In this document: positions 15,594 to 21,783 of the stretch, in pieces
Layout: the number at the start of each line of letters is the position of its first letter
Numbering within the stretch: the stretch's first letter is position 1
From: Bacilli bacterium
GTDB taxonomy: Bacteria > Bacillota_I > Bacilli_A > RF39 > UBA660
Length of the DNA stretch: 64,000 bases
Reading direction: 5' to 3'
Assembly (NCBI GenBank): GCA_900768345.1
Contig: CAAGCO010000020.1
Location: 68,002 to 132,001 of the forward strand
The notes under the pieces: generated by a model
The model's database searches: none
Told to the model about the DNA's origin: nothing
The model's input: the letters and a program-made list of their open reading frames with translations, nothing else
Position numbers and translations under genes: made by a program

Positions 15594-16439
15594 ATGACTA
15601 AAGAAGATTATTTAAAAATAGCAAAAGAAAAATTTAGTAAGAATACACAATCATTAGTTATAAGGCAAATTAATAATTATTATAAAGCTAAAGAAAAGTA
15701 TAGAATAGAGAAGCCTAAATATAACATCGGTGATAAAGTAAAACTTAGCAAAGGAACACTACTTCATGGCACATACAAAAATATAGATGGACTTAAAGAA
15801 ATATTAAAAGATGGTCTTGTATCTAGTTGGTTTGTAAATGCAAGAACATCTAAGTATCCAAGTAGTGTAAGTGTATGGAATTTAAAACAAGATTATTACT
15901 TAAAAGATTATATTGATTTTTATTCAGGTGGAACTATTTTATATGCTGGAGTATTTGAAAATGGAAAAGATACACAGCAAAATAAAACAGCAGTCATTCC
16001 TCACTCAAGAATGAAAAATATTATAGAAGAATCTAAAAAATATGATTGTCATATGTGGTCAATCGAAGAAACTAAAGAAGCAAGATTCTTACCAAATTTA
16101 CTACAAGATAGAGTACAAATAGGTATAATATTTGATAGTAATAATAAATACATAGAAAAACAATTAAAAGGAGATATCTTATCAAATACTATCTCAAATA
16201 GAAAACTAAAAGAATTTGTAAATCCAGCATACTATGAAAGATTCATAAAAGATAAGAAACACAAAGATGATTTCTTCACAGATAGAGAAAGTGCAATAAT
16301 TTTCGGAATTCCTTCAAACTTCATAGAGGGAATACTAGTTGGAAAAATATATGAAAAAGATGATAAAATATTAGATGAAATAAAAAAACTACTACCAAAC
16401 TCATACATATGTAATCTAGATGGAATAGTTATAAGGTGA
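15594..16439 (+). CDS. ADP-ribosyltransferase-fold protein (PARP/Tpt1-like H-G-T motif)
   Basis: TLLHGTYKNIDGLKEILKDGL matches the LL(W)HG(S/T)...IL..GL signature shared by PARP catalytic domains and Tpt1/KptA RNA 2'-phosphotransferases. Tyr-rich DYYLKDYIDFY follows. Confidence 0.4.
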   Translation: MTKEDYLKIAKEKFSKNTQSLVIRQINNYYKAKEKYRIEKPKYNIGDKVKLSKGTLLHGTYKNIDGLKEILKDGLVSSWFVNARTSKYPSSVSVWNLKQDYYLKDYIDFYSGGTILYAGVFENGKDTQQNKTAVIPHSRMKNIIEESKKYDCHMWSIEETKEARFLPNLLQDRVQIGIIFDSNNKYIEKQLKGDILSNTISNRKLKEFVNPAYYERFIKDKKHKDDFFTDRESAIIFGIPSNFIEGILVGKIYEKDDKILDEIKKLLPNSYICNLDGIVIR

Positions 16440-16443
16440 TAAA

Positions 16444-16995
16444 ATGAATGGTAAAGTTATTATAATAGGTGGAAATAAAAGAGCAGGTAAAACAACATTA
16501 TCTAATTTGCTACATAACAAGTATAATTTTAATCAATATAATTTTGATATGATATTAGACTCTTTAGAAGCAACATTTAAAGACTTAGAAGATGGAAATG
16601 ATGATAAATATATTGAATTACTCGATAATATGATAAATAGAAGTCTTGAAGATGCTAAAAACTATGGAATAAATACTCTATATGAATATATATTTACACC
16701 AAAACAAATATCAAAATTAAAAAATAAGAATAATATAAAAATATATTTTTTAGCAAATCTTGATGCTAATGAAGACAACATTGAAAGTGATATGATAAAA
16801 TACTCAAAATCTTATGATTGGCCAGTAACAGCTACAAAAGAAGATGTAAAAAGAAACATTAATTATATTTTAGAAAGAAATGAACTATTAAAAGAAGAAT
16901 GTAAAAAATATAATTTTAGATTAGTAAACACTAGTAGAGAAGATAATAGAAATAAAATATTGAATGATCTAGTAGAAGAAACAATGAAAGAATAA
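16444..16995 (+). CDS. P-loop kinase-like ATPase (AAA_33/zeta-toxin/PNK-kinase-like)
   Basis: Walker A IIIGGNKRAGKTTLSNLL at the N-terminus, 183 aa. Start 5 nt after the upstream stop. Confidence 0.5.
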   Translation: MNGKVIIIGGNKRAGKTTLSNLLHNKYNFNQYNFDMILDSLEATFKDLEDGNDDKYIELLDNMINRSLEDAKNYGINTLYEYIFTPKQISKLKNKNNIKIYFLANLDANEDNIESDMIKYSKSYDWPVTATKEDVKRNINYILERNELLKEECKKYNFRLVNTSREDNRNKILNDLVEETMKE

Positions 16996-17001
16996 AATAT
17001 T

Positions 17002-17460
17002 ATGAAAGATATAAGATATAAAGAAAACAATTATCAATTTCACTATAGAACATCAGCTATTATTTATAATAAAGATAAAACTAAAATATTACTCTTTAAG
17101 TCATCAAATAGAGACTTTTATATGCTACCAGGTGGTAAAGTAAATGAACTTGAAAGTAGTGAAGATGCTCTTAAAAGAGAAGTGCAAGAAGAAACAGGAT
17201 TAAAAATAAATATAATAGATTTTAAATGCTTTAGTGAATGTGTAGTAACTGATAAAGAAATGACCTATCAGCAAGTAGAAGCTATTTATGAAGCAAGTTA
17301 TAATGATGAAATAAATAATGATGAATTTAATGGTTTAGAAGGAAATTGGATACTATTTAAATGGTTCAATATTAATAATTTGGACAATATACTAATAGAG
17401 CCAAAAGGAATAAAAGATATATTAAAGAATAATAAAAATCACATAGTAGATGGATTTTAA
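17002..17460 (+). CDS. NUDIX hydrolase
   Basis: Nudix box GGKVNELESSEDALKREVQEETGL (GX5EX7REUXEEXGU). Confidence 0.8.
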   Translation: MKDIRYKENNYQFHYRTSAIIYNKDKTKILLFKSSNRDFYMLPGGKVNELESSEDALKREVQEETGLKINIIDFKCFSECVVTDKEMTYQQVEAIYEASYNDEINNDEFNGLEGNWILFKWFNINNLDNILIEPKGIKDILKNNKNHIVDGF

Positions 17461-17476
17461 AATAAGTAGGTGAGTA

Positions 17477-19243
17477 ATGAAACAAAGTGATATAGAAAAA
17501 TTAATAAAGCAAGGATATTCTATAGAAGAAATAAGAGTTGCTTTAAATGGCTTAAGTACTATAGCTTTATCTCCTCAAGAAAAAGAAGCATTGGGTGAAG
17601 GAAGAGATGACAGAACTGTTTACGTAACTCCTCAAAATGGTGAAGAGAAAAAAACAAGCTCTATAATGATGGGATATAACAAACAGGGTATAGAACTAGA
17701 AAACGGAGAGTACGTAAATTTTGATGAAGTATCAGAAGCAATTAATAAAGAATTACAAACTGATGAACCAAATATAGTATATGTAAGCAAGAAAACAGGC
17801 AAAAAGATAGCTAAACCAGAAGTAATAGAAGAACTATTTAAAGATGTAATTGCTGTATCAAATGGTTTAAAAATAAGTGAAGATAATTCTATTCAAAATC
17901 AAAATACTGCAAGAATTGCAATCGAAGAATATGCTAAAAACAAAGAACATAATAAAGGTGTAATGATGTTCGGAAACGAAGGAATAGAACTACCAAACGG
18001 AGACTATGTTCTCATTTCGGAAATAGAAAGTGCTTTAGAAAATTATGTAAGAATGACCCCATCAGAAATAATTGAAATAGAAGACCCAACAAAAGGACAA
18101 GACACAAAACAAAAGCCTAAGAAAGAAGAAAAATATAGAGTAATAGATAGAATCAAAAAGAAAATGACTATCATACCAATTATTATAGCTATCGCAGGTA
18201 CACTTGCAACTGGATTTAAAATGGAACCTACATTTACTACAGAGGTAGTACAAAATGATAGAACGGAAGCTATATATATGGTAGATGAACTTCATGAAAA
18301 AAGTGAGCAAGAATTAACAGAGGAAGCAGTAGAAAGAATACAAGATATTAAAACGGGCGATAAAATTCAAATGGAAGAAGGAATTGAATACCACGAATCA
18401 AGTACTTATAAATATGGTGGAGCAAACAAAAGTGCTGAGTTTGGTGGAAAATATAGAGAAGCCGGAGAATATAATGTAGAATACATTTCAATACTTCATG
18501 ATGGCAAAAGAGTACAAGTTAAATATAATGAAGGAGAAAGTCTAGGGGAAAACTTAAAAGAAACAGCAGATAGACTAGGAGTATCCATAAGTGACTTAGA
18601 ATCATACCTTCATATAGGTGGTCCAGTAGCAGGATGGGTATCAACTGATGATTTAGTAAAGTTCCAAGTAGATAAATCACTAGAAGATAAAAATGTTATA
18701 TTAGAAACAAGCAAAAACATCAAAGTAGAGAATAAAGACTTCAACGGAAGCACAATAAGTATAAATGAAAACGGCACTAATGTAGACTTAAAAGTAGTAG
18801 ATGAAAATGGTAACTTATTAAATCCAGGTTCCATAGTGACAGGTTCAAACGGAGTAAAATATAGAATACAAGATTATAATTTAGAACAAAAACTTGATAA
18901 AGAAGAAAAACAAATTCAAACAGGTGAACACCTAACTTGGAGTATACATAATATCAGTAGTGAAGTTGCACTATTATCAGCAGCAGCATCTCTAATAGCA
19001 ACAAAATTAAGTAAACGAAATGATAAAAAGATGGTAACACTTACTGAAAGCAAAATAAATGAATTAGTAGGAAATGCAAGGCAAAAATTTGAACACGAAA
19101 GTGAATTCCAAAAAGCAGTAGATTCTTTAGTAAGTAAAAGAATAAAACCAGAAATAGCTGAAAAAGCAAATCTTAAAGATGCATTAATAGATAAACAAAT
19201 AACAGTTGAAGATATAGAAAATTTAGGAGGTCCACAATTATGA
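17477..19243 (+). CDS. hypothetical bitopic membrane protein with internal repeats
   Basis: Single TM (IIPIIIAIAGTLATGF) mid-protein. N-terminal half has repeated ~30-aa units (GYNKQGIELENGEYVNFDEVSEAI / MFGNEGIELPNGDYVLISEIESAL). Confidence 0.5.
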   Translation: MKQSDIEKLIKQGYSIEEIRVALNGLSTIALSPQEKEALGEGRDDRTVYVTPQNGEEKKTSSIMMGYNKQGIELENGEYVNFDEVSEAINKELQTDEPNIVYVSKKTGKKIAKPEVIEELFKDVIAVSNGLKISEDNSIQNQNTARIAIEEYAKNKEHNKGVMMFGNEGIELPNGDYVLISEIESALENYVRMTPSEIIEIEDPTKGQDTKQKPKKEEKYRVIDRIKKKMTIIPIIIAIAGTLATGFKMEPTFTTEVVQNDRTEAIYMVDELHEKSEQELTEEAVERIQDIKTGDKIQMEEGIEYHESSTYKYGGANKSAEFGGKYREAGEYNVEYISILHDGKRVQVKYNEGESLGENLKETADRLGVSISDLESYLHIGGPVAGWVSTDDLVKFQVDKSLEDKNVILETSKNIKVENKDFNGSTISINENGTNVDLKVVDENGNLLNPGSIVTGSNGVKYRIQDYNLEQKLDKEEKQIQTGEHLTWSIHNISSEVALLSAAASLIATKLSKRNDKKMVTLTESKINELVGNARQKFEHESEFQKAVDSLVSKRIKPEIAEKANLKDALIDKQITVEDIENLGGPQL

Positions 19244-19533
19244 GAGAAGACTCATCATTTAACCAATATGTAAATGCATATAAAAAATTACCACTTCAAA
19301 AGAAGAAAGAAATGGTAAACGAAGAAACTAAAAAACTAATCGCATTCATTGAAAAAATAAACGCAGATATGGGTATAAAAGAACAAACATTATTTAATAG
19401 AGAAATACTTGATTTAAATAGCAATAACATTAGTGATGATGATTTTACTGAAGCTATGTTTGTATATATTCATACTATTAGAGAATCACTTGGAGCATAC
19501 TTCAATAAAGTATCAGAAGTATTATATAAATAA
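19240..19533 (+). CDS. hypothetical protein (overlaps upstream stop by 4 nt)
   Basis: ATGA overlap suggests coupling with the 588-aa gene. Confidence 0.4.
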   Translation: MREDSSFNQYVNAYKKLPLQKKKEMVNEETKKLIAFIEKINADMGIKEQTLFNREILDLNSNNISDDDFTEAMFVYIHTIRESLGAYFNKVSEVLYK

Positions 19534-19542
19534 GGAGGATTT

Positions 19543-19770
19543 ATGATAGAAACAGGTGAAATAATAACATTAAGTAATAATAAGGAATATATTTGTTTTA
19601 GTTCTTTGAATTATGAAGGAAAACATTATATATATTTAATAAGCAATTTTAAACCATTAGAGATTAAATTTGGAATTCAAACTATTGAAAATAACGAAAT
19701 AAGTATAGAAATTATAAACGATCAAAAAGAAAAAGAAAAAGTCTTATCTTTATTCCAAAATCAAAAATAA
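19543..19770 (+). CDS. hypothetical small protein
   Basis: 75-aa ORF with RBS AAGGAGGA upstream. Confidence 0.4.
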   Translation: MIETGEIITLSNNKEYICFSSLNYEGKHYIYLISNFKPLEIKFGIQTIENNEISIEIINDQKEKEKVLSLFQNQK

Positions 19771-19800
19771 AATGTAGAAAATTAATTCTACATTTTTATT
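19770..19800 (+). terminator. rho-independent terminator closing the 15.6-19.8 kb cluster
   Basis: aaatgtagaa-aattaa-ttctacattt followed by ttatttg. Confidence 0.6.
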
Positions 19801-20090
19801 TGATTTCAGTTCCTCCCCATTCAAGGACTGTATAACCATTTCTATTTACTTTGGTTAATTTTTGTTCTTTAATATCTATTTTATTATCTAGTTTTTTATA
19901 TGTCATAAGAACTCTTATAAGTGTTTCAAGTTTTGGTAACCAATATATTATAAATTCTTTACTTTCTCTTTCATTAAGTCCTAGTATTTCTAATTTTTAT
20001 TCTAAGAACTTAGCTGTATCTTTTCCTTCAATAACAAATCCATCATCAGTACTAAAATTAATATTTTGTTTGCTTTCATATCAAATGGAA
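19795..20090 (-). pseudogene. degraded small secreted-protein gene remnant
   Basis: Minus-strand translation gives MKANKILILVL... (signal-peptide-like) and, in shifted frames, ...DDGFVIEGKDTAKFLE* and ...IIYWLPKLETLIRVLMTYKKLDNKIDIKEQKLTKVNRNGYTVLEWGGTEIK*. Multiple stops/frameshifts, no long ORF on either strand. Confidence 0.3.
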
Positions 20091-20168
20091 AAATACTAGA
20101 AAGTAATCAAGAAAAAATAACTATGTAATAAATTATGAATTTAAAAAATTATTAATCATAAAATTAAT

Positions 20169-21054: not shown

Positions 21055-21783
21055 ATGAAATTATTAAGTGATATAGGAACAGAATCTATTGTATATGCTA
21101 ATGATAATTATGTATACAAGATATTTAGAAAAGATTATAAATTAAGTCATAAAACACCACAAGAATTAGAATTCTTAGCTTCATTAAAAACAACTAGAAT
21201 CTTAATGCCAAGTTCATTAATTATGGAAGACAATGAGTTAAAGGGATATAAAATGCCGTATATAAAAGGAAACATGGATATATTAGATACTCCTATGAGA
21301 GAATTAATCGATGAGTTACACCTTATCGATGAAGACATTAAATTACTAAGTAACTCATTAGTAAGATTGATGGATATAAATAAAGAAAATACGATTTTTA
21401 ATGGTAAGTTATATTTAATAGACCCAGGGAATTATTTTATAAATGATATAAAAGCTCTTCTTCCATATATAGGAAATAAAGAACCAACTCCTGAAGAAAA
21501 AATTGAATTAATTGAAGCATGGAACTATGATAAACTAAACAAATTATTAGATGAACTATTGTTTATTAATAATGATGAAATAGATTTCTATTTGCTTAGA
21601 AAAATAATAGAATTTTTTAATCAAGAAAGAGCTAAAAAAAGACTTAAATCTAACTTAGGTATATTTGAATTATACTTTGATAAATCACTAACAGTTAGAG
21701 AATCAATAAATAAATTTATAAAAGAATATATAAAAATAGATGAAAAAGAAAGACAAATGATAATATCATTAATACTAAAATAA
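21055..21783 (+). CDS. protein-kinase-like fold protein (small atypical kinase / CotS-like)
   Basis: N-lobe-like IGTESIVYANDNYVYKIF, catalytic-loop-like MDINKENTIFNG and LYLIDPGN (DxG). Confidence 0.35.
   Translation: MKLLSDIGTESIVYANDNYVYKIFRKDYKLSHKTPQELEFLASLKTTRILMPSSLIMEDNELKGYKMPYIKGNMDILDTPMRELIDELHLIDEDIKLLSNSLVRLMDINKENTIFNGKLYLIDPGNYFINDIKALLPYIGNKEPTPEEKIELIEAWNYDKLNKLLDELLFINNDEIDFYLLRKIIEFFNQERAKKRLKSNLGIFELYFDKSLTVRESINKFIKEYIKIDEKERQMIISLILK

What the first reader, a model, noticed from the sequence alone, without database searches (positions are those of the whole stretch)
15594..19800. Accessory cluster: ART-fold (PARP/Tpt1-like) protein, P-loop kinase, NUDIX hydrolase and a repeat-containing membrane protein
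Between lepB and a terminator at 19770-19800 lie six same-strand ORFs with tight spacing or overlaps. The first has TLLHGTYKNIDGLKEILKDGL, matching the H-G-S/T...IL..GL signature shared by the PARP catalytic core and Tpt1/KptA NAD-dependent RNA 2'-phosphotransferases. It is followed by a Walker-A kinase-like ATPase (PNK/zeta-like), a canonical NUDIX hydrolase (ADP-ribose or NAD-cap hydrolase type box), and a 588-aa bitopic membrane protein with internal ~30-aa repeats. NAD-utilising transferase plus kinase plus Nudix is the enzymatic repertoire expected for an NAD/ADP-ribose-based nucleic-acid or protein modification-and-reversal module, as seen in RNA repair, NAD capping/decapping, and ADP-ribosylation defence or toxin systems. 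None of these genes belongs to the conserved neighbourhood of lepB or dedA.
Basis: partly seen in the sequence, partly recalled or inferred. Interest (0 to 1): 0.7.

Follow-up and report, generated by a model that had tools for sequence, protein, structure and literature searches.

The report
New ADP-ribosyltransferase-fold gene, not a module
The first gene of the cluster belongs to an unannotated protein family of uncultured gut bacteria that is confidently predicted to have the NAD-using ADP-ribosyltransferase fold, but the six genes are three unrelated units thrown together in a gene-turnover spot, not one conserved system.

Summary
Six tightly spaced + strand ORFs (15594-19770) lie between lepB and an AT-rich terminator hairpin, and all are under purifying selection.

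- **ORF2** is a generic small-molecule/NMP-kinase-fold P-loop protein, not specifically PNK- or zeta-like.
- **ORF3** is a canonical Nudix of MutT/RppH type, without ADP-ribose or NAD-cap signatures.
- **ORF4-6** form a separate conserved trio found elsewhere without ORF1-3.
- Sister genomes have lepB-ORF1-dedA with none of ORF2-6.

Across 83 ORF1-family loci, neighbours are heterogeneous. However, Nudix genes lie within three genes in 23 loci, and Nudix, HIT or histidine-phosphatase genes in 33, in many different orders.

Best reading: ORF1 is a new chromosomal, vertically inherited ART-fold family, probably an NAD+-dependent transferase loosely linked to nucleotide hydrolases. It sits in a variable islet. 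It is not a defence, toxin or repair operon.

The parts
15594..16439 (+). ORF1, 281 aa. It founds an unannotated family with a predicted ADP-ribosyltransferase (ART) fold. It has an N-terminal two-helix hairpin (residues 3-35), an ART-like core at about residues 50-180, and a conserved C-terminal alpha/beta extension (181-281).
15756..15818 (+). Codons for residues 55-75, TLLHGTYKNIDGLKEILKDGL. This is strand β1 (56-60) plus helix α1 (63-73) of the ART core. His58 is the candidate NAD-binding histidine.
   Evidence: DSSP of the model. H58 is present in 31 of 35 family members, G59 in 33 of 35 and G74 in 35 of 35. hhalign places this segment on KptA 99-125 ([27 protein letters not shown]), though only at 12% probability.
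16077..16094 (+). Codons for E162-A-R164-F-L-P167, the only invariant acidic residue of the family. It lies in the loop or short helix between the last two strands of the ART-like core and is a candidate catalytic or ARTT-like element.
   Evidence: E162 is present in 35 of 35 members, P167 in 35 of 35, R164 in 30 of 35 and F165 in 32 of 35. The functional role is inferred.
16444..16995 (+). ORF2, 183 aa. A P-loop protein with a small-molecule/NMP-kinase fold and an unknown substrate.
17002..17460 (+). ORF3, 152 aa. A Nudix hydrolase of MutT/RppH/YtkD-like type. ORF3-like Nudix genes (a group called NUDIXa here) recur near ORF1-family genes.
   Evidence: PF00293 at E = 1.1e-13. The best NCBIfam match is YtkD at 37.8 bits, below the 154-bit cut-off. 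The nearest PDB relatives are uncharacterised MutT/Nudix proteins, Dcp2 and RppH. A NUDIXa gene lies within ±3 genes of ORF1 in 19 of 83 loci.
17477..19243 (+). ORF4, 588 aa. A fast-evolving membrane protein with two N-terminal ~30-aa repeats. It is the first gene of an independent ORF4-5-6 trio.
   Evidence: Hydrophobic segment and repeats. No family or PDB hit. 134 homologue clusters. dN/dS is 0.39. The trio is found alone in L091 and L092.
19240..19533 (+). ORF5, 97 aa. Its start overlaps the ORF4 stop by 4 nt. It is the second gene of the trio and its function is unknown.
   Evidence: A conserved 97-aa partner overlaps the ORF4 homologue in L091 and L092. dN/dS is 0.06.
19543..19770 (+). 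ORF6, 75 aa. The third gene of the trio, of unknown function.
   Evidence: A conserved 76-aa partner is present in L091 and L092. dN/dS is 0.14.
19769..19802 (+). AT-rich intrinsic-terminator-like hairpin (11-bp stem, 6-nt loop) followed by a T-run, ending the co-directional gene string.
   Evidence: RNA fold of -17.3 kcal/mol, z = -5.15, with 0 of 200 shuffles as stable. Sequence.
19799..20125 (.). Decayed remnants of two genes that are intact in sister genomes. One is the C-terminal part of a 373-aa minus-strand gene. The other is the last ~33 codons of a 281-aa plus-strand gene. They mark a deletion in this islet.
   Evidence: tblastn of the L008 proteins against the window. blastn of the spacer against L008 and L009. 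L008 ORFs.

Best explanation
The stretch is a co-directional, probably co-transcribed string of genes in a gene-turnover islet. It lies between lepB and dedA/rbgA on the chromosome of an uncultured, ~26% G+C gut Bacilli bacterium. Relatives are labelled Bacilli, Tenericutes, Mollicutes or 'Clostridium sp. CAG' metagenome-assembled genomes (MAGs). The string contains three evolutionarily independent units.

**Unit 1: ORF1.** ORF1 is the anchored, vertically inherited gene. It represents an unannotated ~280-aa family whose core adopts the ADP-ribosyltransferase fold, closest to the NAD+ lobe of Tpt1/KptA and to DarT. That is the branch of ARTs that acts on nucleic-acid phosphates or bases.
- Shown: the fold, the conserved His in β1, an invariant Glu162, and strong purifying selection.
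- Inferred: it binds NAD+ and transfers ADP-ribose to a cellular, non-protein-toxin type substrate. The likeliest substrate is a phosphate or base on RNA, DNA or a nucleotide-like small molecule. The conserved C-terminal extension would supply substrate recognition in place of Tpt1's N-terminal RNA lobe.

**Unit 2: ORF2 and ORF3.** ORF2 (a gluconate/adenylate-kinase-fold P-loop kinase) and ORF3 (a MutT/RppH-like Nudix) are house-cleaning-type nucleotide enzymes inserted downstream of ORF1 in only part of the genus. ORF3-like and other Nudix genes, HIT hydrolases and histidine phosphatases recur next to ORF1-family genes across the whole family tree, in many different orders. I therefore infer a loose functional link: these hydrolases process the ADP-ribose-containing product or by-product, as NUDT16 does for TRPT1-made RNA-ADP-ribose.

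**Unit 3: ORF4-5-6.** This is a separate conserved trio (a membrane protein plus two small proteins) of unknown function. It happens to lie here.
For: **Fold.**
- AF2 model: pLDDT 93.3, pTM 0.90.
- Foldseek's top hit is DarT1, at E = 2e-3 and probability 0.97.
- The HGT..GL segment aligns to KptA's LYHGT...GL.

**Conservation.** H58 is present in 31 of 35 members, W95 in 29, Y106 in 31, Y110 in 32, E162 in 35, R164 in 30, R231 in 32 and E245 in 32.

**Housekeeping-like behaviour.**
- dN/dS is 0.09-0.11, similar to lepB.
- ORF1 sits at the same position after lepB in five sister genomes.
- The family is confined to gut Bacilli MAGs.
- There are no phage, plasmid or specific defence-model hits for ORF1.
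- Neighbours include aminoacyl-tRNA synthetases, SecA, TruB and similar genes.

**Independence of the units.** L010 and L011 lack ORF2-6. L005 lacks ORF4-6. L091 and L092 carry the trio alone. L089 and L090 carry ORF2 alone.

**Link to hydrolases.**
- A Nudix gene lies within ±3 genes in 23 of 83 loci and is adjacent in 16. A Nudix, HIT or histidine-phosphatase gene lies within ±3 genes in 33 of 83.
- These neighbours are scattered over the whole ORF1 tree in different orders and on both sides.
- L088 has ORF2 and ORF1 homologues (each about 62% identical to the window's) 2 kb apart in reversed order, with Ham1, GNAT and Nudix genes between them.
- NUDT16 removes TRPT1-catalysed RNA ADP-ribosylation (PMC6582358).
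Against: - There is no sequence-level link to any ART family. Pfam, NCBIfam and PADLOC give nothing, and hhalign to KptA reaches only 12% probability over 27 columns.
- Residue-level superposition was not available. It is therefore unresolved which Glu (E162 or E245) and which aromatic residue (W95, Y106 or Y110) occupy the canonical ART positions.
- H58 is replaced by R, N, Y or T in 4 of 35 members.
- Half of the loci (41 of 83) have none of the recurrent neighbours.
- The loci are not phylogenetically independent, and no genome-wide background was available. The hydrolase association could therefore be partly inherited synteny in small, co-directional genomes.
- No Macro, ARH or NADAR partner was seen among recurrent neighbours.
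- The ORF3 subtype gives no hint of ADP-ribose specificity.
Confidence: 0.6

Rival explanations
1. All six genes form one NAD/ADP-ribose-based modification-and-reversal module (RNA repair, NAD capping/decapping, or a defence/toxin system), with ART, kinase, Nudix and membrane protein working together.
For: - Tight spacing, a single strand and a terminator after ORF6.
- ART fold for ORF1, a P-loop kinase fold for ORF2 and a Nudix for ORF3.
- The full six-gene order is kept in L008 and L009.
- ORF3 matches the PADLOC candidate model PDC-S07 at E = 2.5e-11.
Against: - The six-gene order exists only in the closest relatives (ORF1 at 89% identity or more).
- L010 and L011 (86-88% identity) have lepB-ORF1-dedA directly. 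L005 replaces ORF4-6 with other genes.
- ORF4-5-6 travel alone, and ORF2 occurs without ORF1.
- No PADLOC system protein matches apart from the generic Nudix model, and ORF1 has no phage or plasmid relatives.
- ORF2 is not PNK- or zeta-like.
Confidence: 0.06
2. ORF1 is a DarT-like toxin that ADP-ribosylates DNA or RNA. The adjacent Nudix, or another neighbour, acts as its antitoxin, making this a toxin-antitoxin or abortive-infection defence pair.
For: - DarT structures are among the best fold matches.
- A Nudix gene is adjacent in 16 of 83 loci.
- Some genomes carry 2-3 paralogues, including tandem copies (L064 and L075).
- Fic/DOC genes occur among the neighbours.
Against: - There is no obligatory partner gene. 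Immediate neighbours differ in most loci and 41 of 83 have none of the recurrent families.
- In the window itself ORF1 is flanked by lepB and a kinase, not by the Nudix.
- No DarT, DarG or NADAR model matches.
- Inheritance looks vertical, at a fixed chromosomal site, with dN/dS of about 0.1 like lepB.
- ORF1 is absent from phages and plasmids.
Confidence: 0.1
3. ORF1 is a small-molecule ADP-ribosyltransferase, functionally like Arr (the rifampin ART). It detoxifies an antibiotic or xenobiotic, and sits among other detoxification or resistance-type enzymes.
For: - ART fold.
- Neighbours in several loci are resistance- or detoxification-like: APH, GNATs, VanY and an ABC exporter in L001; a nitroreductase in L004; glyoxalase, GNAT and Ham1 in L088.
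- An ABC-F gene lies upstream in the window.
- The ORF2 fold resembles the tunicamycin-resistance protein TmrD and chloramphenicol phosphotransferase, among others.
Against: - The family is restricted to one bacterial lineage and has no plasmid copies. That is unlike typical resistance genes.
- The neighbour categories are heterogeneous.
Confidence: 0.14
4. ORF1 is a catalytically inactive or non-transferase ART-fold protein, such as an NAD+/ADP-ribose sensor or NADase, or purely structural. Its Nudix, HIT and histidine-phosphatase neighbours reflect inherited synteny rather than function.
For: - The canonical triad cannot be assigned with confidence, and H58 is not universal.
- There is no sequence similarity to active ART families.
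- Half of the loci lack the recurrent neighbours.
- The genomes are small and strongly co-directional, so local synteny can persist by descent.
Against: - There is very strong conservation of polar residues typical of an active site: E162 is invariant, and R164, R231, E245 and E254 are present in more than 85% of members.
- The hydrolase neighbours appear in many different orders and on both sides of ORF1 across the whole tree. Pure inheritance explains this poorly.
Confidence: 0.1

Closest known systems
Tpt1/KptA RNA 2'-phosphotransferase (Pfam PTS_2-RNA), NAD+-binding C-terminal lobe
   Same: - The β1 motif is the same: ORF1 has LLHGT...ILKDGL and KptA has LYHGT...IKKQGL.
- By my reading, the order of secondary-structure elements from residue 56 to about 180 parallels the KptA NAD lobe.
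   Different: - There is no PF01885 hit.
- ORF1 has no N-terminal winged-helix RNA lobe carrying the Arg-His-Arg part of the catalytic tetrad. It has a two-helix hairpin instead.
- KptA's fourth catalytic Arg (R125) aligns with Phe80, though the alignment is of low confidence.
- ORF1 has an extra conserved 100-aa C-terminal extension and an invariant Glu that Tpt1 (motif H-H-h) does not need (PMC8120803).
DarT (DarT1/DarT2) ssDNA ADP-ribosyltransferase toxins of DarTG / DarT-NADAR systems
   Different: - There is no DUF4433/DarT HMM hit in Pfam or PADLOC.
- There is no adjacent macrodomain (DarG) or NADAR antitoxin.
- ORF1 is chromosomal, vertically inherited and housekeeping-like.
- Sequence identity in the structural alignments is only 7-17%.
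PARP catalytic domain (H-Y-E ARTD)
   Same: Both have an H-G-[ST] β1 motif. An aromatic pair 11 residues apart (W95...Y106) recalls the Y-X10-Y of diphtheria toxin and PARP, and ORF1 has a conserved Glu. This comparison is inference from spacing only.
Nudix-ART/NAD-ADP-ribose gene-neighbourhood networks described by comparative genomics (e.g. PMC9503650)
   Same: An ART-fold gene is recurrently linked to Nudix genes. This is the kind of contextual link used to infer ADP-ribose processing.
   Different: The linkage here is loose, seen in 23 of 83 loci. It involves a MutT/RppH-like Nudix rather than an ADP-ribose-type one, lacks Macro, ARH, NADAR and SLOG partners, and is in a non-mobile chromosomal context.

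Membership tests
ART (ADP-ribosyltransferase) fold superfamily - ORF1 | Split β-sheet NAD+-binding ART fold | tested here: met
   [not shown]
ART (ADP-ribosyltransferase) fold superfamily - ORF1 | Conserved His or Arg on strand β1 (motif 1) | tested here: met
   H58 lies in strand 56-60 and is present in 31 of 35 diverse members, followed by G59 in 33 of 35.
ART (ADP-ribosyltransferase) fold superfamily - ORF1 | Motif 2 (aromatic Tyr, or S-T-S) and motif 3 (a catalytic Glu, or a hydrophobic residue in Tpt1) at the canonical structural positions | tested here: inconclusive
   The candidates are W95, Y106 or Y110 for motif 2, and E162 (invariant), E245 (32 of 35) or the hydrophobic residue 178 for motif 3. 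The tools returned no residue-level superposition, so the positions could not be assigned.
ART (ADP-ribosyltransferase) fold superfamily - ORF1 | NAD+ binding and ADP-ribose transfer | not testable with these tools
   This needs biochemistry.
Tpt1/KptA RNA 2'-phosphotransferase - ORF1 | Match to the PTS_2-RNA family model (PF01885) | tested here: not met
   There is no hit at E <= 1 for ORF1 or for any of 35 family members. hhalign to KptA covers only 27 columns at 12% probability.
Tpt1/KptA RNA 2'-phosphotransferase - ORF1 | Two-lobe architecture with an N-terminal winged-helix RNA lobe bearing Arg-His-Arg of the catalytic tetrad (PMC8120803) | tested here: not met
   [not shown]
Tpt1/KptA RNA 2'-phosphotransferase - ORF1 | Fourth catalytic Arg just after the GL motif of the NAD lobe (KptA R125) | tested here: inconclusive
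   In the only available alignment R125 pairs with F80 of ORF1, but that alignment has low confidence.
DarT toxin (DarTG / DarT-NADAR) - ORF1 | Match to DarT/DUF4433 models | tested here: not met
   There is no Pfam or PADLOC hit at E <= 1.
DarT toxin (DarTG / DarT-NADAR) - ORF1 | Adjacent macrodomain (DarG) or NADAR antitoxin gene | tested here: not met
   The window neighbours are lepB and a P-loop kinase. No Macro or NADAR family is among the 25 most frequent Pfam families in 150 neighbour-cluster representatives. A rare singleton cannot be excluded.
DarT toxin (DarTG / DarT-NADAR) - ORF1 | Toxicity through DNA ADP-ribosylation | not testable with these tools
   This needs expression and toxicity assays.
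Nudix hydrolase - ORF3 | Nudix box GX5EX7REUXEEXGU and a PF00293 match above the cut-off | tested here: met
   The box lies at residues 45-67. PF00293 scores 51.7 bits against a cut-off of 21.1.
ADP-ribose pyrophosphatase / NudC NAD-cap subtypes of Nudix - ORF3 | Match to ADP-ribose-type (YffH/NudF/NudE) or NudC models. From my own knowledge, a Pro about 15-16 residues downstream of the box marks ADP-ribose pyrophosphatases and SQPWPFPxS marks NudC. | tested here: not met
   The NudC model NF001299 scores 18.1 bits against a cut-off of 158. NudE scores 14.1 against 169, and TIGR00052 scores 12.9 against 79.6. There is no Pro in the 25 residues after the box. The best relatives are of YtkD, MutT, RppH and Dcp2 type.
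P-loop kinase (NMP/small-molecule kinase fold) - ORF2 | Walker A motif and a kinase-type P-loop fold | tested here: met
   [not shown]
Polynucleotide kinase / zeta-toxin kinases - ORF2 | Specific similarity to PNK or zeta toxin | tested here: not met
   [not shown]
Known anti-phage defence systems (PADLOC) | Match of the cluster's proteins to system models | tested here: not met
   Only ORF3 matches, and only the generic Nudix candidate model PDC-S07. ORF1 has no hit, and the other ORFs have only weak chance-level matches or none.

The most novel reading that the evidence does not exclude
The ORF1 family is a housekeeping nucleic-acid or nucleotide ADP-ribosyltransferase of reduced-genome gut Bacilli. 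Its ADP-ribose adducts or by-products would be processed by Nudix, HIT and histidine-phosphatase enzymes rather than by macrodomain, ARH or NADAR hydrolases. That would be a macrodomain-independent ADP-ribosylation cycle on RNA ends or nucleotides, built on a Tpt1/DarT-like core fused to a new C-terminal substrate domain.
Probability: 0.15. Interest if true: 0.75.

Novelty: new variant of a known kind. Interest (0 to 1): 0.45.

Why it matters
ART-fold enzymes that act on nucleic acids (Tpt1, DarT, pierisin/scabin, RhsP2) are a fast-growing area. Bacterial Tpt1/KptA still has no known physiological substrate.

This finding adds a family of about 1,500 proteins with no annotation in Pfam, NCBIfam, PADLOC or PHROGs. 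The family is confined to abundant but uncultured gut Bacilli and carries this fold in a non-toxin, chromosomal, strongly conserved form. It also has a repeated link to Nudix, HIT and histidine-phosphatase genes.

That makes it a concrete, testable candidate for an endogenous (non-conflict) nucleic-acid or nucleotide ADP-ribosylation function.

The result also corrects the tempting reading of the six-gene string as a defence or repair module. The string is an accidental juxtaposition in a variable islet.

Tried and rejected
- **Sequence-family searches for ORF1.** Pfam, NCBIfam, PADLOC, PHROGs and a PDB profile search found nothing real. The polyubiquitin 'hits' (E about 1e-7) are sums of eight 2.7-bit repeat matches, so they are an artefact.
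- **hhalign of the ORF1 family against E. coli KptA.** I tried KptA alone and as a small KptA alignment. Only the HGT..GL segment aligned (12% probability), so no residue mapping was possible.
- **The single metagenome scan, spent on KptA.** It returned almost only E. coli copies and added little diversity.
- **afdb50 fold search.** The library was not available.
- **Consensus terminator scan.** It found none because it requires G-C pairs. Folding showed the AT-rich hairpin instead.
- **Whether the unknown genes next to ORF1 in L006 and L001 are divergent ORF2 or ORF3 homologues.** They are not.
- **Whether the 281-aa gene of sister genomes is an ORF1 paralogue.** That gene (cluster c29) carries the motif YVYHMTS...IDETGLNP. 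No relationship was detectable.
- **The most frequent ORF1 neighbour, U1.** It has no Pfam, PDB or PHROG match.
- **ORF4 against PDB sequences.** Nothing.
- **tblastn of ORF1 against phage and plasmid collections.** No match.

Full report
**1. What is in the sequence**

The region 15594-19770 holds six + strand ORFs of 281, 183, 152, 588, 97 and 75 aa. The gaps between them are 4, 6 and 16 nt, then a 4-nt overlap, then 9 nt. Shine-Dalgarno-like sequences precede five of the six.

Upstream lie an ABC-F ATPase, rplS and lepB (Peptidase_S26, E = 2.5e-42). Downstream lie a VTT/DedA protein, an unknown 242-aa ORF and the GTPase rbgA/ylqF. G+C is about 23-32% throughout, with no compositional break at the cluster.

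An AT-rich hairpin (19769-19796) followed by a T-run sits right after ORF6. It folds at -17.3 kcal/mol (z = -5.15). The consensus scan missed it because it demands G-C pairs.

All six ORFs are under purifying selection against sister genomes, with dN/dS of 0.06-0.39. ORF1 is at about 0.1, like lepB.

**2. ORF1 is an unannotated family with an ART fold**

ORF1 and 34 diverse relatives match nothing in Pfam, NCBIfam, PADLOC or PHROGs. A profile search of PDB sequences gave only a polyubiquitin repeat artefact.

The family is nevertheless sizeable and well conserved. It has 1555 clusters at 90% identity and about 200 at 50%. Nearly all members are stand-alone proteins of 270-290 aa.

In one-genome-per-species data, 211 stretches were found. 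All 79 retained loci come from metagenome-assembled genomes (MAGs) of uncultured, mostly gut bacteria. Most are labelled Bacilli, Tenericutes, Mollicutes, Erysipelotrichaceae or 'Clostridium sp. CAG:524/433/594'.

AlphaFold2, run on a 35-sequence alignment, gave a confident model with pLDDT 93.3 and pTM 0.90.

These were followed by SopF, TreX, KptA, CteC, pierisin, LT, scabin, OspC3, MTX, pertussis toxin, CC0527, CARDS, TreTu, PARP1, PARP15 and SidE. By my count, 29 of the top 38 hits are ART-fold proteins. Foldseek independently put DarT1 first (E = 2e-3, probability 0.97), then other DarT entries and Tpt1.

hhalign places it on KptA's [27 protein letters not shown], the start of the KptA NAD lobe, though with only 12% probability.

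The ART-fold idea stands.

**3. What kind of ART it is**

Conservation across the family:

| Residue | Members with it (of 35) |
|---|---|
| H58 | 31 |
| G59 | 33 |
| G74 | 35 |
| W95 | 29 |
| Y106 | 31 |
| Y110 | 32 |
| S111 | 29 |
| G112 | 33 |
| E162 | 35 |
| R164 | 30 |
| P167 | 35 |
| R231 | 32 |
| E245 | 32 |
| E254 | 33 |

The C-terminal motif Y271-I-C-N274..G277 is also conserved.

The order of secondary-structure elements from residue 56 to about 180 is β-α-β-β-α-β-(β)-α-β-β. By my reading it parallels the KptA NAD lobe. I therefore infer that the ART core is roughly residues 50-180. It is preceded by a two-helix hairpin and followed by a conserved ~100-aa extension.

No residue-level superposition was available. 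I could not decide whether the third ART motif is Glu162, Glu245 or a Tpt1-like hydrophobic residue, nor which aromatic residue stacks on nicotinamide.

*Membership tests.*
- **Not a Tpt1 orthologue.** It has no PF01885 match and no N-terminal winged-helix lobe carrying the Arg-His-Arg of the catalytic tetrad (the tetrad and lobe are described in PMC8120803). The fourth catalytic Arg aligns to Phe80.
- **Not a DarT.** It matches no DUF4433/DarT model, and no macrodomain or NADAR gene is next to it.

ORF1 is best described as a new family within the Tpt1/DarT-like part of the ART superfamily.

**4. The six genes are not one conserved module**

I ran tblastn of all window proteins against 86 loci around ORF1 homologues and inspected called genes.
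- The full ORF1-6 order exists only in L008 and L009, where ORF1 is 95% and 89% identical.
- L005 (85%) keeps lepB-ORF1-ORF2-Nudix, then continues with different genes.
- L010 and L011 (88% and 86%) go from ORF1 to dedA with none of ORF2-6. L010 has one unrelated 281-aa gene in between.
- At 45-70% identity ORF1 sits in many unrelated contexts. These include a GNAT and VanY (L001), a nitroreductase (L004), unknown genes (L006), and aminoacyl-tRNA synthetases, SecA, TruB and others.

ORF4-5-6 form their own conserved trio: a ~590-aa protein, a 97-aa protein whose start overlaps it by 4 nt, and a 76-aa protein. The trio occurs between a PFOR/Flg_new pair and recG in L091, and in another context in L092. 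ORF4 evolves fast, at 58% identity where ORF1 is 89%.

ORF2 belongs to a tiny family of 60 clusters. It occurs without ORF1 in L089, L090 and a third contig.

The spacer after the terminator (19799-20125) holds remnants of two genes that are intact in L008 and L009. The interval between ORF1 and dedA is therefore a hot spot of gene gain and loss.

**5. A weaker but real contextual signal**

I clustered the three genes on either side of ORF1 in 83 loci. Recurrent neighbour families are listed below; the names are labels used here.

| Neighbour family | Loci within ±3 genes | Loci directly adjacent |
|---|---|---|
| U1, an unknown protein | 21 | 8 |
| NUDIXa, an ORF3-like Nudix | 19 | 11 |
| Histidine phosphatase | 13 | 8 |
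| HopA1-like protein | 10 | 3 |
| NUDIXb, a second Nudix type | 7 | 6 |
| HIT hydrolase | 7 | 2 |

Some Nudix gene lies within three genes in 23 loci and is adjacent in 16. A Nudix, HIT or histidine-phosphatase gene lies within three genes in 33 loci. None of the six families is present in 41 loci.

On a neighbour-joining tree of ORF1 these neighbours are spread over all major branches. They occur upstream or downstream and in several orders. L088 also has ORF2 and ORF1 homologues (each about 62% identical to the window's) 2 kb apart in reversed order, with Ham1, GNAT and Nudix genes between them.

This pattern is more than a single inherited arrangement. It suggests a loose functional tie between the ART-fold protein and nucleotide-diphosphate or phosphate hydrolases. 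I had no genome-wide background and the loci are not independent, so I treat the tie as suggestive only.

A plausible chemical rationale exists. TRPT1/KptA ADP-ribosylate 5'-phosphorylated RNA, and the Nudix enzyme NUDT16 removes that mark (PMC6582358).

**6. ORF2 and ORF3**

ORF3 is a bona fide Nudix (PF00293). Its nearest relatives are uncharacterised MutT/Nudix proteins, YtkD, RppH and Dcp2. The NudC and ADP-ribose pyrophosphatase models score far below their cut-offs. The downstream Pro that I recall as typical of ADP-ribose pyrophosphatases is absent.

**7. Mechanism**

My best explanation (confidence about 0.6 for the package) has three parts.
- ORF1 is a chromosomal, vertically inherited ART-fold enzyme. 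It probably uses NAD+ to ADP-ribosylate a phosphate or base on RNA, DNA or a nucleotide-like small molecule. Its C-terminal extension would play the substrate-binding role that the N-lobe plays in Tpt1.
- Nudix, HIT and histidine-phosphatase neighbours process the resulting ADP-ribose-containing species.
- ORF2-3 and ORF4-6 are independent passengers in a variable islet.

The fold, the conservation and the independence of the units are shown. NAD+ use, the substrate and the hydrolase link are inferred.

The rivals, with my probabilities:
- a small-molecule (Arr-like) detoxifying ART, 0.14
- a DarT-like toxin with a Nudix antitoxin, 0.10
- an inactive or sensor ART-fold protein with merely inherited synteny, 0.10

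**8. Novelty and interest**

The fold and chemistry are of a known kind, but the family is unannotated. It lacks the defining accessories of both Tpt1 and DarT, carries a new C-terminal domain, and shows a non-conflict, housekeeping-like genomic behaviour. I rate it a new variant of a known kind.

Interest is moderate (0.45). It is a good, testable lead for people working on nucleic-acid ADP-ribosylation and on the biology of uncultured gut Bacilli. The striking 'system' reading is not supported, and all functional claims remain computational.

Noticed in passing
window 19799-20125: The 370-bp 'spacer' between the ORF6 terminator and dedA is not empty. It holds decayed remnants of two genes. 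One is the C-terminal third of a 373-aa minus-strand gene (70% identical to L008:10204-11325). The other is the last ~33 codons of a 281-aa plus-strand gene (L008:11431-12276). Both are intact in sister genomes, so a deletion fused them here.
   Followed up: yes
L008:11431-12276, L005:2741-3577, L010:1056-1898 (deleted in the window): The 279-281-aa gene lost from the window (cluster c29) carries YVYHMTSKANASSIDETGLNP. This is another H-x-[TS]...I...GL motif, like the β1 motif of DarT, Tpt1 and ORF1. hhalign finds no relation to the ORF1 family and Pfam gives nothing. It could be a second, unrelated ART-like gene in the same islet.
   Followed up: partly
window 16444-16995 vs L005:1498-2046: ORF2 is 95% identical to its L005 counterpart, with dS = 0.12. 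The flanking ORF1, ORF3 and lepB have dS of 0.6-0.8 in the same genome pair. This suggests recent recombination or transfer of just the kinase gene between lineages.
   Followed up: no
L017, L018, L020, L021, L047, L058, L060, L067 and others (e.g. L060:4567-5127): The most frequent neighbour of ORF1-family genes (21 of 83 loci) is an unknown ~186-aa protein, called U1 here, sometimes present as a ~365-aa tandem-duplicated form. It has invariant WNP, GGFN, RW..RG and P.DA motifs. It has no Pfam, PHROG or PDB sequence match. It is not present in this 64-kb window.
   Followed up: partly
window 17477-19770; L091:7001-9315; L092:1952-4226: ORF4-5-6 is a conserved three-gene unit found in different genomic contexts: a ~590-aa membrane protein with N-terminal repeats, a 97-aa protein whose start overlaps it by 4 nt, and a 76-aa protein. 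It has no family annotation at all. ORF4 evolves much faster than its two small partners, with dN/dS of 0.39 against 0.06 and 0.14.
   Followed up: partly
L064:~5100-6900, L075:~6000-7800; MAGs CANQNL01, JAHZBE01, CAKOMI01, JALEZJ01: Several genomes carry two or three ORF1-family paralogues, including tandem pairs. The family therefore duplicates within genomes even though it looks vertically inherited.
   Followed up: no
window 21055-21783: A 242-aa ORF between dedA and rbgA has no hit in Pfam, NCBIfam, PADLOC or PHROGs. It is 93% conserved in L010.
   Followed up: no
window 2864-4015: An S41-peptidase-like gene in the window is 59% identical to a gene that lies next to ORF1 homologues in several other genomes, such as L050, L024 and L064. 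Here it is 12 kb away from ORF1.
   Followed up: no
neighbours of ORF1 homologues (A4 set): Fic/DOC-domain genes form three separate neighbour clusters next to ORF1 homologues. That equals Nudix as the most recurrent Pfam family by cluster count. Like ARTs, Fic proteins are nucleotide-transferring modifiers.
   Followed up: no
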